DNA from: Malacoraja senta
Lineage: Eukaryota
NCBI GenBank assembly: GCA_038087875.1
Contig: CM075989.1
Coordinates: forward strand, 2,976,001-3,040,000
Length of the DNA: 64,000 nucleotides
Direction: 5' to 3'
The translations under genes were made by a program, and so were the position numbers. The notes below the pieces were generated by a model. That model had not been told where the DNA came from. It saw nothing but the letters and a program-made list of their open reading frames with translations, and did no database searches. This document shows, in pieces, positions 15,230 to 28,169 of the stretch (position 1 is its first letter; the number at the start of each line of letters is the position of its first letter).

Positions 15230-16430
15230 TTTTACCAGGATGCATCACAGCATGGTTTGGGAACAGCTCCGTCCAAGACCGCGTAGAATTGTTGGCGCAG
15301 CCAAGACCATCACAAAACCTAACCTTCCTTTCATTGACTCCATATAACCATATAACCATATAACCATTGCAGCACGGAAACAGGCCATCTCGGCCCTTCA
15401 AGTCCGTGCTGAACATTTTTTTTTTTTTTTTTTTTTTAAATAAATACTTCCCCCTAGTCCCATCTACCTGCACTCAGACCATAACCCTCCATTCCTTTCC
15501 CGTCCATATTCCCATCCAATCTATTTTTAAAGGATAAAATCGAACCAGCCTCCACCACTTCCACTGGAAGCTCATTCCACACAGCTACCACTCTCTGAGT
15601 AAAGAAGTTCCCCCTAAACTTCTGTCCCTTAATTCTCATGTCCCCTTGTTTGAATCTTCCCTACTCTCAATGGAAAAAGCTTATCCACATCAACTCTGTC
15701 TAACCCGCTCATAATTTTAAAGACCTCTATGAAGTCCCCTCTTAATCTTCTGCGCTCCAAAGAATAAAGACCTAACTTGTTCAACCTTTCTCTGTAACTT
15801 AGTTGCTGAAACCCAGGCAACATTCTAGTAAATCTCCTCTGTACTCTCTCTATTTTGTTGACATCCTTCCTATAATTAGGCGACCAAAATTGTACTCCAT
15901 ACTCCAGAATTGGCCTCACCAATGCCTTGTACAATTTTAACATTACATCCCAACTTCTATATTCAATGCTCTGATTTATAAAGGCCAGCACCCCAAAAGC
16001 TTTCTTTACCACCCTATCTACATGAGATTTCACCTTCAGGGAACTATGCACAGTTATTCCTAGATCCCTCCATTTACACCTCACGCTGCCTCGGCAAGGC
16101 CAGCAGCATAATCAAGGACCAATCTCACCCCAGTCACTCCCTCTTCTCCCCCCTCCCATTGGGCAAAAGGTACAAAAGTGTGAAAATGCACACCTCCAGA
16201 TTCAGGGACAGTTTCTAGAGACCAGTCCTGATCTACCATCTACCTCAATGGAGACACTCAGATTATCTTTAATCGGACATTATCTTGCACTAAACATTAT
16301 TCCCTTTATCCTGCATCTGTGCACTGTGGACAGTTTCATTGTAATCATGTATCGTCTTTCCACTGACTGGATAGCACGCAACAAGAGCTTTTCACTGTAG
16401 CTTGGTACACGTAACAATAAACTAAACTAA
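15230..16430 (+). mobile_element. Rex1/Babar-like fragment interrupted by CR1
   Basis: GCITAWFGN...LP-IDS|IYTSRC--KA-SIIKD-SHP-H-LF. Confidence 0.7.
15344..16067 (-). mobile_element. CR1 LINE, 3' 720 bp
   Basis: ORF 15629-16084: LYKALVRPILEYGVQFWSP...ERRRLRGD; CTCCAT on both flanks (15338 and 16068). Confidence 0.92.
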
Positions 16431-19000: not shown

Positions 19001-20790
19001 CGTATCACCCACCTGTAATACATGACCTATGAACAAAACACAAAGTAGAGGTGTGACTCAACAGATCAGGCAGTGCCTGTGAAGCAAATTTTCATAAGTT
19101 CATGTTCATAAGAGATAGGAGCAGAATTAGGCCATTCAGCCCATCAGGTCTACTCCGCCATTCAATCATGGCTGACCTTTCTTTCCCTCTTAACCCCATT
19201 TTAAGCTGTTTCCCCATTCAGCATGGACCCTCCGCAGTGGTCGGTTAACCACTCATCCGGTAGTTGCTTGCTGACAAAGGGCCTTTGAGGTCTCCCTTCC
19301 TTCATCTCACTCTGGGACATGGGACTCAATGATCATCGACTCCTCCCTGACAGGTAAGTATCTGTCCCGTGACCCTCACTAGTGTCAGGCCACAGAGAGG
19401 AGAGCCCAGGCAGCTCACCTGTGGGAGGTAGGTGCTCCATCTCAAATGCCCAGACCTTTAGGCTATGGTTCAATGGTACTTACAATGCCACATGTACCAA
19501 CACTGAAATCCATTTTTATATAGAGTTCAGTCCCACGAAACATAAACAGTTAGATACATCTTAAATAAGCATCTCAGGTACAGTACAAGAATATAAGAAG
19601 GAACTGCAGATGCTGGTTTAAACCAAGAAGCTGGAGTAACTCAGTGGGGCAGGCAGTATATCTGGAGAGAAGGAATGGGTGACGTTTCGGGCCGACACCC
19701 TTCTTCATACTGGTCTATCTTTAGTTCATGTTCATAAATTATAGGAGCAGAATTAGGTCAAGTGGCCCATCTAGTCTATGCCACCATTCAATCATGGCTG
19801 TTCTATCTTTCCCCCATTCTCCTGCCTTCTCCCATTGGTCCTGACACCCTTAGTAATGAAGAATGTGACCAAACTCTGCATTAAAATTATCCACTGACTT
19901 GGTCTCCACAGCCCTCTGTGGCAACGAATTCCATATGCAGAGAATGCATCTCATTCCATTTGTACACCGTGGGGTGGCCCGACTGTAATCATGTATTGTC
20001 TTTCTGCTGACTGGTTAGCCCGCAACAAAAGCTTTTCACTGCACCACGTGACAATAACCTAAACACAAACTCAAACTGAGAGTCACTGGATTTGGCGCCA
20101 TTTTCAAGTCCCAGTTATTATAAGTGTCGAGAGGTGTAGGTCATAAGGTCATAAGGTCTTAAGTGAATTAGGCCAGTCGGCCCATCAAGTCTACTCCGCC
20201 ATTCAGTCATGGCTGATCTATCTCTCTCTCCTAACCCCATTCTCCTGCTGTCTCCCCATAACCTCTGGCACCCGCACTAATCAAGAGGTTGTACAGGTTA
20301 TTGCATATAGTCCAGTGGAGTGTTCCCTGACTATATGAAAGGGAATTGCTGAACGAGTGGGCAGTGAAATCATTGTTCACTCTGTGGAATAAATAGGAAT
20401 GAAAGGAGCACTATATTGTGCATCAACGCACTAATGGAATCAAGAATGTCTGATGCACAACAAAACTGTGTGATCCAGGACTGCCGTTTCATTCTCATAG
20501 ACAGCTGTTATTTTGTTCTCTGTTCAAAATCATTTGACTCTGAAGACTGCACTATTCCAGTTCCATTGTTCCATAAGATTAGTGCTGCATTGGAATCCAT
20601 GTCATTGGAGTGTTTTTATTTGCTTGCTCTGGTTATCAGTGTTTATTTATTCCCAGCAAGACTCACACAAAGTGGCTCAAAGCGACCATCAGAAGGAAGG
20701 GAAATGGACGACATCATTTCTGCGTAGTTTCTGCGATTCGCCGTTATCGGTGAGCAGACCCCCCGAGACCATTCTGCCCCAAACTCCAGT

Positions 20791-27260: not shown

Positions 27261-27713
27261 GCTGTGCTAAAGATGGGCCGGGATTTAAAGGAGCCTGAGT
27301 AATGAAATTATGGTAACATTAACTTGTTGATTATAATTGCAGGGATGTGTCAGCCAATGTAGTAAAGATCGGGGAGCAATGTTGCTCATCAGGATTGATT
27401 TAAACTCACAGGGAAATAAATGTAGCTTTACTTTAGTTTAGTTCGGAGATACAGTGCGGACACAGGCCCTTCGGCCCACCAAGTCCTCGCCGGCCAGCGA
27501 TCTTTGTACACTAGCACTTTCCTACACACTGGGGACAATTTACAATTTTACCAAAGCCAATTAACCTACAAACCTGTACATCTTTGGAGAGTGAGAGGAA
27601 ACCAGGGGAAAAAGCTTGAGGGTCACGGGGAGAACAAACAGGATTAATATAGCACCTGTAGTGAGGATTAATATAGCACCCCTAGTCAGGATTGAACCCG
27701 GGTCTCTGGCGCT

Positions 27714-27851
27714 TTTTCTTCTTGCGTATGGCGTGCACAGCCTAAAGGTGCAAGTCAACTTGTTCTATTTGATCTATTTGTTTGTGCACGTCGGTTTGAT
27801 TGCATTAGTCGAAACAGGGTGGACCACGTGAAGGTTGCAATCTCCCACCCC
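27714..27851 (-). mobile_element. 138-bp non-autonomous retroposon (ingi/Vingi/RTE-like)
   Basis: Perfect 12-bp TSD GTCTCTGGCGCT (27702-27713, 27852-27863); 3' end GCCATACGCAAGAAGAAAA; no Pol III boxes. Confidence 0.85.
27798..27851 (-). ncRNA. Minimal (P4-less) HDV/CPEB3-like self-cleaving ribozyme
   Basis: GGGGUGG-GA-GAUUGCA-ACC-UUCACGU-GGU-CCACCCU-GU-UUCG-A-CUAA-UGCAAUC: P1 7 bp with G.U at position 1, P2 7 bp, P3 3 bp, L3 UUCACGU, J4/2 CUAA. Confidence 0.88.
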
Positions 27852-28169
27852 GTCTCTGGCGCTGTGAGGCAGTAACTCTACCGCTGCGCCACCATGTTGC
27901 CCATTAATTGTCAATACACGAGCCATATGTTGCTAGTCCAGACACACTACTCATAAGCACTGCCCAAGGGCCACTCCCAATACCTGCACAGGATGCAGAG
28001 GGTTTAAGTCTAGGAAATGATGACCCACTATAATGCTGAGGGCTCCTGCAAACCCAGAGCTCTATCACTGAATCCATCACTAAATACCAGCATTCTAGAT
28101 TTCACAATAAATCTCCTGAACTGACGTTAGTCTCAGCAGCCGACCCGCACTTGTAGTTTTCCAGCATAA

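What the first reader, a model, noticed from the sequence alone, without database searches (positions are those of the whole stretch)
27714..27851. 138-bp retroposon whose 5' 54 nt form a minimal HDV/CPEB3-like ribozyme
Seen: on the minus strand the insert begins GGGGUGG-GA-GAUUGCA-ACC-UUCACGU-GGU-CCACCCU-GU-UUCG-A-CUAA-UGCAAUC. P1 (7 bp, G.U wobble at position 1), P2 (7 perfect bp), P3 (3 bp) and a J4/2 with a candidate catalytic C all fall in the HDV nested double-pseudoknot order, and P4 is reduced to UUCG. The predicted cleavage site (5' of G at 27851) is exactly the boundary with a perfect 12-bp TSD. Known: L3 UUCACGU followed by J1/4 GU is the arrangement in the mammalian CPEB3 ribozyme, and HDV-like ribozymes define the 5' ends of R2, RTE and ingi/L1Tc retrotransposons. 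Inference: a promoter-less, ribozyme-headed SINE that frees its 5' end from read-through transcripts and is mobilised by an ingi/Vingi/RTE-type LINE. I cannot tell whether this family has been described in cartilaginous fish.
Basis: partly seen in the sequence, partly recalled or inferred. Interest (0 to 1): 0.9.

Follow-up and report, generated by a model that had tools for sequence, protein, structure and literature searches.

The report
Ribozyme-headed SINE of CPEB3 type
The 138-base insert is one copy of a short mobile element, present thousands of times in this genome, whose first 54 bases very probably fold into a miniature self-cutting RNA of the same type as the ribozyme in the mammalian CPEB3 gene, which hints at where that mammalian ribozyme came from.

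Summary
Observation confirmed. Window 27714-27851 (minus strand) is a retroposed insert with a 12-bp target-site duplication. It belongs to a family with at least 3,839 near-intact heads in the 1.94-Gb genome. In a sample of 40 copies chosen without regard to the 5' end, 34 start exactly at the predicted cleavage-site G.

The first 54 nt meet every term of a published HDV-like ribozyme descriptor. That descriptor found 1 site in the window, against 18 sites in 556 Mb of shuffled sequence.

The same descriptor and Rfam then exposed further retroposon families in this genome headed by related ribozymes. Several pass Rfam's curated cut-off for the "mammalian CPEB3 ribozyme" (35-64 bits). They include a second P4-less SINE and a LINE-like element whose ORF opens with an AP endonuclease. 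Across families the P1, P2 and P3 sequences differ but still pair (87.7% of cells paired, against 66.9% in shuffles), while L3 and J4/2 stay fixed.

The finding's own head does not reach any Rfam cut-off. No cleavage was shown and no RNA data were found. The mobilising LINE is unidentified; my first candidate turned out to be a nested insertion.

Verdict: a new variant of a known kind, ribozyme-terminated retroposons.

The parts
27852..27863 (-). 5' copy of the target-site duplication (AGCGCCAGAGAC)
   Evidence: Direct reading and script.
27798..27851 (-). 54-nt head: candidate P4-less HDV-like (CPEB3-type) self-cleaving ribozyme. Predicted cleavage is 5' of the G at 27851.
   Evidence: A published descriptor matches in full. 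Rfam's only ribozyme hit, RF02682 at 17.5 bits, spans the full model at exactly these ends. A covariance model built with this family left out ranks it first in the window (15.6 bits, E 0.064).
27845..27851 (-). P1 5' strand (nt 1-7), with G1 at 27851
   Evidence: Pairs with 27816-27822. 5 of 7 P1 pairs covary across families.
27836..27842 (-). P2 5' strand (nt 10-16)
   Evidence: Pairs with 27798-27804. 6 of 7 pairs covary and 96.6% of cells are paired.
27823..27835 (-). P3 (ACC/GGU) enclosing L3 UUCACGU (nt 17-29)
   Evidence: L3 fits TYYHCGY of the published descriptor. Most L3 positions are invariant in the 13-copy alignment and invariant or nearly so across the 38 copies.
27816..27822 (-). 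P1 3' strand (nt 30-36). U36 is the wobble partner of G1.
27809..27815 (-). J1/4 (GU) plus the 5-nt linker UUCGA that stands where P4 would be
   Evidence: The G pairs with the L3 C (P1.1) in 38 of 38 copies. The second P4-less family has UUCCA at the same place.
27805..27808 (-). J4/2 CUAA; candidate catalytic C at 27808
   Evidence: Fits CNRA. The C and the two A are invariant in the 13-copy alignment and invariant or nearly so in the 38-copy one.
27798..27804 (-). P2 3' strand (nt 48-54), the end of the head module
   Evidence: The head is found alone with exactly these ends in locus L033/L038.
27722..27797 (-). Body of the SINE: a linker that varies between subfamilies, then a constant 3' region of about 60 nt
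   Evidence: Subfamily comparison. A long-range 8-bp stem is predicted but does not stand out from shuffles (z = -0.72).
27714..27721 (-). Tail (GAAGAAAA here; (GAA)n in other copies)
27702..27713 (-). 3' copy of the target-site duplication

Best explanation
This is a non-autonomous, LINE-dependent retroposon (a SINE in the broad sense). Its head is not a Pol III promoter module but a 54-nt HDV-like ribozyme of the CPEB3 type that lacks P4.

Inferred mechanism. A copy is transcribed as part of any longer host transcript. The head folds into the nested double pseudoknot and cuts immediately 5' of its own G1, so the released RNA starts exactly at the element's first base and still carries the whole ribozyme. 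A LINE reverse transcriptase recognises the constant 3' region and the (GAA)n tail, primes on nicked target DNA and copies to that 5' end. Each new copy is therefore full-length, TSD-flanked and again able to cut itself free.

Shown here: the family, its TSDs, the uniform 5' ends, the fit to the fold, and covariation with sister families. Inferred: cleavage itself, read-through transcription, and which LINE does the copying.
For: Family and copy number:
- At least 2,081 first-look candidates.
- 3,839 near-intact head cores, against 0 in the reversed control.
- 3,947 tails.

TSDs: 24 of 30 best-matching copies have an exact TSD of at least 8 bp next to the 5' G.

5' ends: 40 copies were chosen by an internal 28-mer, in positional order. 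Of these, 34 start at nt 1, 4 start at nt 2-4, 1 has an internal deletion and 1 is 5'-truncated.

Fold:
- Full fit to the published descriptor hdv-looseP4. Its false-positive rate was about 3e-8 per position.
- The only Rfam family that matches the head, of 4,227, is an HDV-class ribozyme, aligned end to end (E 0.097 on 60 nt).

Sister families in the same genome:
- A 193-nt SINE (F2) whose head scores 42.5, 41.7 and 35.1 bits on RF00622, cut-off 35. In 39 of 40 scored copies the match starts at G1, and TSDs abut it.
- RF00622 gives 51 matches among 59 scored candidates, 39 of them over the cut-off, best 64.2 bits.
- Among those is a second P4-less SINE head (F4, 36-44 bits) with a near-identical linker.

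Covariation:
- In 38 unpicked copies of 7 families, 87.7% of cells are paired, against 66.9 +/- 1.1 in shuffles (0 of 500 reach it) and 37-48% when partners are slid.
- The covariation score is 0.606 against 0.207.
- P2, which no covariance model used here encodes, is 96.6% paired, with compensatory changes at 6 of 7 pairs.

Variants within the family: the three common ones (G8A in 26 of 97, A32G in 34 of 97, U45G in 30 of 97) fall in J1/2, on a U.G/U-A-compatible P1 position, and on the free N of CNRA.

Other head types excluded: no tRNA; no 5S, 7SL or snRNA match at E <= 10.

Precedent: ribozymes that define the 5' ends of R2, L1Tc/NARTc, RTE and baggins (passages of PMC6765202; abstract of PMC3414825).
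Against: - No cleavage assay was possible.
- No RNA run was found, so nothing is known about expression or RNA 5' ends.
- The head is below every Rfam cut-off (17.5 against 44 bits). It gives no CPEB3 or HDV_ribozyme hit at E <= 10 and only E 0.064 with the leave-one-family-out model, whose calibration is rough.
- The nested fold energy is ordinary (z = 0.20).
- P4 is missing and the second P1.1 pair is U.U.
- Copies are 88-100% alike, so within-family variation is mostly neutral decay. A32G is a CpG-type change that could arise after insertion.
- In the covariation test the counts of pairs with both-side changes and of pair types did not exceed the shuffles in the 38-copy set (409 and 450 of 500).
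- Uniform 5' ends are also what any short SINE with a fixed transcription start would show.
- The partner LINE is unknown.
Confidence: 0.78

Rival explanations
1. The head has the HDV-like shape by descent but no longer cuts, or cuts too slowly to matter. The fixed 5' end comes from an internal promoter in the same bases that starts transcription at G1, and the fold serves stability or RT binding.
For: P4 is lost, P1.1 is weak, and the Rfam scores are sub-threshold. A dual promoter and ribozyme in one 77-nt head is documented for L1Tc/NARTc (abstract of PMC3383444). Uniform 5' ends fit a fixed start equally well.
Against: No tRNA, 5S or 7SL-like promoter module was found. Two P4-less families each reached hundreds to thousands of copies while keeping every core residue of the descriptor. 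Helices covary between families, which a promoter would not require. Minimal P4-less HDV-like ribozymes are active in vitro according to passages of the theta-ribozyme preprint.
Confidence: 0.13
2. The head is chiefly a structured 5' terminus that the partner reverse transcriptase or an RNA-binding protein needs, for example to end cDNA synthesis or to integrate the 5' end. Cleavage is incidental.
For: The R2 protein binds a pseudoknot within its 5' ribozyme region (passage of PMC6765202). The head keeps exact ends in different contexts.
Against: This does not explain why the catalytic-core residues (the G.U at the cleavage site, the C of J4/2, the L3 consensus) are all kept. Nor does it explain how the RNA would acquire its exact 5' end.
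Confidence: 0.06
3. Chance: an ordinary SINE head that happens to fit a permissive motif.
For: This scan has produced several ribozyme-in-SINE-head readings on other genomes that did not hold up. The nested folding energy is ordinary.
Against: The published descriptor matches about 3e-8 of shuffled positions, yet here it matches exactly at the family's first base. Independent families with other helix sequences fit the same structure, and some pass Rfam's cut-off.
Confidence: 0.03

Closest known systems
R2 SIDEs and R2/R1 hybrid SIDEs of Drosophila (Eickbush and Eickbush 2012, PMC3414825; abstract read)
   Same: A short non-autonomous element consisting of an HDV-like ribozyme at the 5' end joined to a LINE 3' end. 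The 5' end is made by self-cleavage of a co-transcript and the element is copied by target-primed reverse transcription. In the hybrid SIDEs the ribozyme and the 3' end come from different LINEs.
   Different: SIDEs are rare, insert site-specifically in rDNA, and carry the long R2 ribozyme. This family is dispersed, with thousands of copies. Its head is 54 nt without P4 and of the CPEB3 sequence type. Its 3' donor is unknown.
NARTc/L1Tc with the L1TcRz ribozyme of Trypanosoma cruzi (PMC3185411, PMC3383444; abstracts seen in the search listing)
   Same: A non-autonomous partner shares a 5' HDV-like ribozyme with a LINE. The ribozyme frees the element from long co-transcripts.
   Different: A protist ingi-clade element whose 77-nt head doubles as a promoter. 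No promoter activity is known here.
Mammalian CPEB3 intronic ribozyme (Rfam RF00622)
   Same: Same fold. L3 UUCACGU, J1/4 GU and, in the older subfamilies, J4/2 CGAA are identical (consensus). Sister heads in this genome pass RF00622's cut-off.
   Different: The CPEB3 ribozyme is single-copy, intronic, has a 7-bp P4, and is described as found in most mammals (passage of PMC10919898). The head studied here lacks P4, has other P1, P2 and P3 sequences, does not reach the RF00622 cut-off, and is the head of a mobile element.
Minimal HDV-like ribozymes (drz-Mtgn, theta ribozymes of gut phages; passages of bioRxiv 10.1101/2023.06.13.544163)
   Same: Double pseudoknot without a P4 helix, about 50-60 nt, with the catalytic C first in J4/2.
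   Different: Those are from phages and metagenomes and sit next to tRNAs. This one is eukaryotic and heads a retroposon.
Ribozyme-terminated RTE and baggins LINEs of insects (Ruminski et al. 2011; paper not held, known only through passages of the review PMC6765202)
   Same: An HDV-like ribozyme at the first base of a LINE that lacks a promoter. The LINE-like family F3 in this genome looks like this.
   Different: Those are autonomous elements of insects. No sequence likeness to CPEB3 is reported in the passages I saw.

Membership tests
HDV-like self-cleaving ribozymes (nested double pseudoknot) | P1 of 5-8 bp starting at the cleavage-site purine and closed by a pyrimidine (G.U) | tested here: met
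   7 bp, G1.U36. In 97 copies, G.U in 84 and a standard pair in 93.
HDV-like self-cleaving ribozymes (nested double pseudoknot) | P2 pseudoknot of 6-8 bp between the segment 5' of P3 and the segment 3' of J4/2 | tested here: met
   7 Watson-Crick bp. 6 of 7 pairs covary across families and 96.6% of cells are paired.
HDV-like self-cleaving ribozymes (nested double pseudoknot) | P3 of 3 Watson-Crick bp closing a 7-nt L3 that fits UYYHCGY | tested here: met
   ACC/GGU with UUCACGU.
HDV-like self-cleaving ribozymes (nested double pseudoknot) | P1.1 between L3 and J1/4 | tested here: inconclusive
   C22-G37 is present in 38 of 38 aligned copies. The second pair is U.U here and was never scored as a standard pair. 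For CPEB3, passages of PMC4836649 likewise describe one G-C and one U-U.
HDV-like self-cleaving ribozymes (nested double pseudoknot) | J4/2 beginning with the catalytic C (CNRA) | tested here: met
   CUAA, and CGAA in the older subfamilies.
HDV-like self-cleaving ribozymes (nested double pseudoknot) | P4 helix | tested here: not met
   Replaced by 5 nt. The published loose-P4 descriptor allows 4-54 unpaired nt, and P4-less ribozymes are reported active.
HDV-like self-cleaving ribozymes (nested double pseudoknot) | Site-specific self-scission, abolished by a C-to-U change of the J4/2 cytosine | not testable with these tools
   Needs a bench assay.
Rfam RF00622 (CPEB3 ribozyme) | Covariance-model score at or above the gathering score of 35 bits | tested here: not met
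   No hit at E <= 10 on the head and none at gathering score in the window. Sister heads F2 to F7 score 35-64 bits.
LINE-dependent non-autonomous retroposon (SINE in the broad sense) | Short, non-coding, dispersed, TSD-flanked, with a simple-repeat 3' tail | tested here: met
LINE-dependent non-autonomous retroposon (SINE in the broad sense) | 3' end shared with an autonomous LINE of the same genome | tested here: inconclusive
   No LINE with this tail was found in the DNA held. Tail and head counts are equal (3,947 against 3,839). The one apparent match (L039) is a nested insertion.
Classical SINE (Pol III head) | Head derived from tRNA, 7SL or 5S RNA with an internal Pol III promoter | tested here: not met
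   ARAGORN finds none. No such Rfam match at E <= 10.
SIDE / NARTc type (internal-deletion derivative of a ribozyme-bearing LINE) | An autonomous LINE carries the same ribozyme at its 5' end | tested here: inconclusive
   No LINE 5' end with this exact head was found. This was not exhaustive: 170 of the 270 matches were never listed, 90 of the 100 listed were judged only from the printed matched strings, and 55 of the 93 matches were not read. A LINE-like family with a related CPEB3-type head exists (F3).

The most novel reading that the evidence does not exclude
The CPEB3-type ribozyme is an old, mobile vertebrate module. It is a self-cleaving 5' cap substitute that has been passed among RTE-like LINEs and several SINE families, with or without P4. 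The single-copy ribozyme in the mammalian CPEB3 intron would then be a domesticated head of such a retroposon. The 54-nt head in this window would be the smallest natural eukaryotic member of the class.
Probability: 0.4. Interest if true: 0.85.

Novelty: new variant of a known kind. Interest (0 to 1): 0.72.

Why it matters
Ribozyme-terminated retroposons are known mainly from insects and trypanosomes. Here a vertebrate-type genome carries thousands of copies of several such families. Their heads are sequence-level relatives of the CPEB3 ribozyme, which the papers I could read describe only in mammals and whose origin is open.

If the heads cleave, three things follow. First, they show a SINE design in which a ribozyme, not a Pol III promoter, provides a heritable 5' end. 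Second, they supply natural P4-less variants, 52-54 nt long, for structure-function work. Third, they make the retroposon origin of the CPEB3 ribozyme directly testable by comparing heads across vertebrate genomes.

My searches of the held library found no description of this. The terms used were HDV-like ribozyme with SINE; with CR1; with lamprey; ribozyme with SINE and shark; self-cleaving ribozyme with cartilaginous fish; CPEB3 ribozyme with retrotransposon and origin; CPEB3 ribozyme with fish; and CPEB3-like with ribozyme. Key subscription papers (Webb 2009; Webb and Luptak 2011; Ruminski 2011) and Repbase/Dfam could not be consulted.

Tried and rejected
1. Partner LINE, retracted. I first read locus L031/L039 as an esterase-APE-RT (CR1-group) LINE that carried the head and shared its last 88 nt with the SINE. 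That reading is wrong. The same LINE in the window (15345-15617, minus strand) and in L039 ends in its own 8-nt tandem tail. In L039 it is flanked by a 5-bp duplication (AATCA) of SINE nt 51-55. So L039 is a SINE copy split by a nested, 5'-truncated LINE. In line with this, 29 of 29 other copies of that LINE have no head within 1.5 kb upstream. Their full-length 5' ends are arrays of 80-bp monomers.

2. Search for a LINE 5' end behind this exact head. Patterns of head plus non-SINE bases gave 8, 270 and 93 matches. I read downstream sequence at 8, 10 and 36 of them; another 90 were judged from the printed strings only. All were SINE variants, inversions or deletions. Never listed or not read: 170 matches and 55.

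RTE-like RT fragments in the loci I held stop short of their 3' ends.

4. RNA evidence: no RNA holder was listed. The four runs laid are contigs, probably DNA, and show only that the element and its A32G variant occur in four coded organisms.

5. Ordinary fold statistics of the head and body do not stand out. The bacterial promoter/terminator scan is irrelevant here.

6. The second hit of model R1 (window 19746-19785) lies in another dispersed repeat and is not a ribozyme.

7. The earlier-findings index holds nothing on this genome or sequence.

8. Pfam on the 43-aa start of the F3 ORF gave nothing.

Full report
**The object.** On the minus strand the window reads a 138-nt insert (27851 down to 27714). 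It begins GGGGUGG and ends in an A/GAA-rich tail. The 12-mer AGCGCCAGAGAC lies on both sides. The flanks are two halves of another repeat: contigs of three public runs (X1, X4, X19) join them without the insert (table 5). ARAGORN finds no tRNA in the region.

**A large, young family with one 5' end.**
- The window's own genome (1.94 Gb) gave at least 2,081 first-look candidates. The 40 scored were 96-100% identical, and 38 of them matched from query base 1.
- Of the 30 loci fetched, 24 had an exact TSD of at least 8 bp within 2 nt of the first G. The tails were (GAA)n.
- To avoid bias towards full-length copies I counted an internal 28-mer of the young subfamily (270 exact matches). I then fetched 40 matches in positional order, leaving out loci I already held. 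Homology started at nt 1 in 34, at nt 2-4 in 4, one copy had an internal deletion and one was 5'-truncated.
- A CpG-tolerant 34-mer of the head occurs 3,839 times, against 0 for the reversed control. A 30-mer of the tail occurs 3,947 times.
- Older subfamilies exist. One is a 120-nt form and others are long forms with a different linker. Their heads differ from the window's at A32G (U-A becomes U.G in P1) and at the second base of J4/2 (CGAA instead of CUAA).
- In 97 ungapped heads the only variants above 10% are G8A (26), A32G (34) and U45G (30). All three sit at positions the fold tolerates. The other recurrent changes are CpG decay. Some of those 97 loci had been selected for an exact 14-mer in nt 41-54, so that stretch is not informative.
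- Contigs of runs from four coded organisms also hold the element, mostly in the A32G form.

**Does the head fit an HDV-like ribozyme beyond chance?**
- The 54 nt lay out as follows: P1 (7 bp, G1.U36), J1/2 GA, P2 (7 bp), P3 (3 bp), L3 UUCACGU, J1/4 GU, a 5-nt linker in place of P4, and J4/2 CUAA.
- Earlier notes of this scan record similar ribozyme readings on other genomes that failed, so I used a descriptor that I had not written. It is hdv-looseP4, from the supplement of the RNArobo paper (PMC4870747, Additional file 1, Fig. S36).
- Re-implemented, it matches the head with no mismatch and nowhere else in the window.
- In 4,343 dinucleotide shuffles (556 Mb) it matched 18 sites, and only one of them had P1 and P2 both at least 7 bp.
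- Rfam supports this only weakly. The sole ribozyme family matched is HDV-F-prausnitzii: 17.5 bits against a cut-off of 44, the full model aligned to exactly 27798-27851, with E 0.97 on 601 nt and 0.097 on 60 nt. The CGAA forms score 14.4 bits or nothing.
- Nothing in the window reaches any gathering score.
- The nested MFE structure is P1+P3, but its energy is ordinary.

**The turn: sister families.**
- Run over all the loci I held, the published descriptor also hit a spot unrelated to the finding, in the flank of L024.
- That spot is the head of a second SINE, F2. It is about 193 nt long with an (AAG)n tail. TSDs abut its first G. There were at least 2,053 candidates, and 39 of the 40 scored matched from base 1.
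- Its head passes Rfam's curated cut-off for RF00622, the 'mammalian CPEB3 ribozyme': 42.5, 41.7 and 35.1 bits against 35.
- Searching the genome with RF00622 gave 51 matches among 59 scored candidates. Of these, 39 were over the cut-off, the best at 64.2 bits. None was found in the 14 control genomes.
- I fetched 20 of the hits. They fall into further families.
- F3 has a full P4 and scores about 44-64 bits. An ORF starts 30 nt downstream. Its first 43 residues are 93% identical to a database protein that carries AP-endonuclease domains. Relatives of that protein are 950-1,000-residue endonuclease-plus-RT proteins on contigs of about 3.2 kb. I take this to indicate an RTE-like LINE, which is an inference from architecture.
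- F3 has about 20 5' ends in the genome, several of them truncated.
- F4 is a SINE of about 175 nt with TSDs and a P4-less head of 52-53 nt (36-44 bits). Its linker UUCCA differs by one base from the UUCGA of the finding.
- F5, F6 and F7 are other heads with P4. F6 resembles the CPEB3 consensus even within P4.

**Covariation.**
- In a MAFFT alignment of 13 well-kept copies from six families, 91.6% of cells pair, against 72.4% in shuffles. Those copies were picked for few mismatches, which inflates the percentage.
- I therefore repeated the count with 38 unpicked copies: all 20 RF00622 loci, the first 8 F2 loci, and the first 10 of the unbiased sample of the finding's family.
- In that set 87.7% of cells pair, against 66.9 +/- 1.1 in shuffles (0 of 500 reach it) and 37-48% with slid partners. 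The covariation score is 0.606 against 0.207.
- P2, which neither Rfam's model nor mine encodes, is 96.6% paired, with both-side changes at 6 of 7 pairs.
- Against this, the two measures that count pairs or pair types did not exceed the shuffles in the 38-copy set (409 and 450 of 500).
- The L3 residues, the G of J1/4 and the C..AA of J4/2 are invariant or nearly so.
- A covariance model built without the finding's family ranks the finding's head first in the window with filters off, but only at 15.6 bits and E 0.064, with rough calibration.

**What I got wrong on the way.** I first took L031/L039 for the partner LINE. It looked like the head, then an esterase-endonuclease-RT LINE (Pfam), then the SINE's last 88 nt, inside one TSD. 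Passages of PMC13343379 tie esterase ORF1 to CR1/L2 elements. But that LINE ends in its own 8-nt tandem repeat, both in L039 and in the window copy at 15345-15617. In L039 it is bracketed by a 5-bp duplication of SINE bases 51-55. It is therefore a nested insertion into a SINE copy. The near-equal head and tail counts (3,839 and 3,947) also argue that no abundant head-less element shares this tail. The mobilising LINE is unknown. F3-like elements are candidates only because they carry the same kind of head.

**Mechanism and standing.** The best reading is a SINE whose head is a self-cleaving CPEB3-type HDV-like ribozyme. Read-through transcripts are cut 5' of G1, and a LINE RT copies the released RNA to its end, so every daughter keeps the ribozyme. 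The family, its ends, the fit to the fold and the covariation are shown. Cleavage, transcription and the partner are inferred.

The closest known systems are the R2 and R2/R1 hybrid SIDEs (abstract of PMC3414825) and NARTc (abstracts seen in the listing). A review already states that some SINEs use HDV-like ribozymes (passage of PMC6765202). What is new here:
- the CPEB3 sequence type outside mammals;
- the natural P4-less forms;
- the copy numbers;
- the coexistence of several LINE-like and SINE families built on one ribozyme module.

Papers I could read still describe the CPEB3 ribozyme as mammalian (passages of PMC10919898; PMC8256844).

Noticed in passing
L024:1956-2023 (minus); copies L196-L218: Second SINE family (F2, about 193 nt, (AAG)n tail, TSDs at its first G). 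Its head passes Rfam's cut-off for the CPEB3 ribozyme (35-42.5 bits). At least 2,053 first-look candidates.
   Followed up: yes
L219-L221, L228, L238 (for example L221:161-233, minus): LINE-like family F3: a CPEB3-type head with full P4 (about 44-64 bits), then an ORF 30 nt downstream that opens into an AP endonuclease. Relatives are single-ORF APE+RT proteins on contigs of about 3.2 kb (RTE-like). About 20 5' ends in the genome. Its 3' end was not seen.
   Followed up: partly
L230-L237: SINE family F4 (about 175 nt) with a P4-less head of 52-53 nt that still passes RF00622 (36-44 bits). Its P1 is 6 bp and lacks the extra 5' G, so the base pair at the cleavage site would be G-C, not G.U.
   Followed up: partly
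L222-L227, L229: Further CPEB3-type heads (F5, F6, F7). In many families the bases right after P2 read ACCAC, which suggests a shared ancestral 5' region. F6 resembles the CPEB3 consensus even in P4.
   Followed up: no
L039:545-3940: A copy of the finding's SINE split by a nested, 5'-truncated esterase-APE-RT LINE, with a 5-bp duplication of SINE nt 51-55. This is easily mistaken for a ribozyme-headed LINE.
   Followed up: yes
L043, L045, L055, L068 (upstream parts); window 15345-15617 (minus): That esterase-bearing LINE has 5' ends made of 80-bp tandem monomers (up to 6.2 copies) and a 3' end of 8-nt tandem repeats. At least 2,303 first-look candidates.
   Followed up: partly
L040:780-1010 (= L033/L038, one locus assembled twice): The 54-nt head alone, with exact ends, sits with 29 extra bases in the centre of a long inverted repeat that looks like a MITE or foldback element. 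How it got there is unexplained.
   Followed up: partly
L151, L152, L176, L189, L192: Copies in which the 38 nt between the two P2 arms are inverted relative to the rest of the element, at five different loci. This could be inversion across the 7-bp inverted repeat or a subfamily made by template switching.
   Followed up: no
window 28011-28048 (+): Weak C/D-box snoRNA-like match (SNORD41, 21.3 bits against a cut-off of 41, E 0.16) with C and D boxes and a short terminal stem.
   Followed up: no
Ends of families F1, F2 and F4: The three SINE families end alike (..ACGCAAGAAG, ..ACGAAAAGAAG, ..TCGATAAGAAG). This would fit one reverse transcriptase family recognising all three.
   Followed up: no
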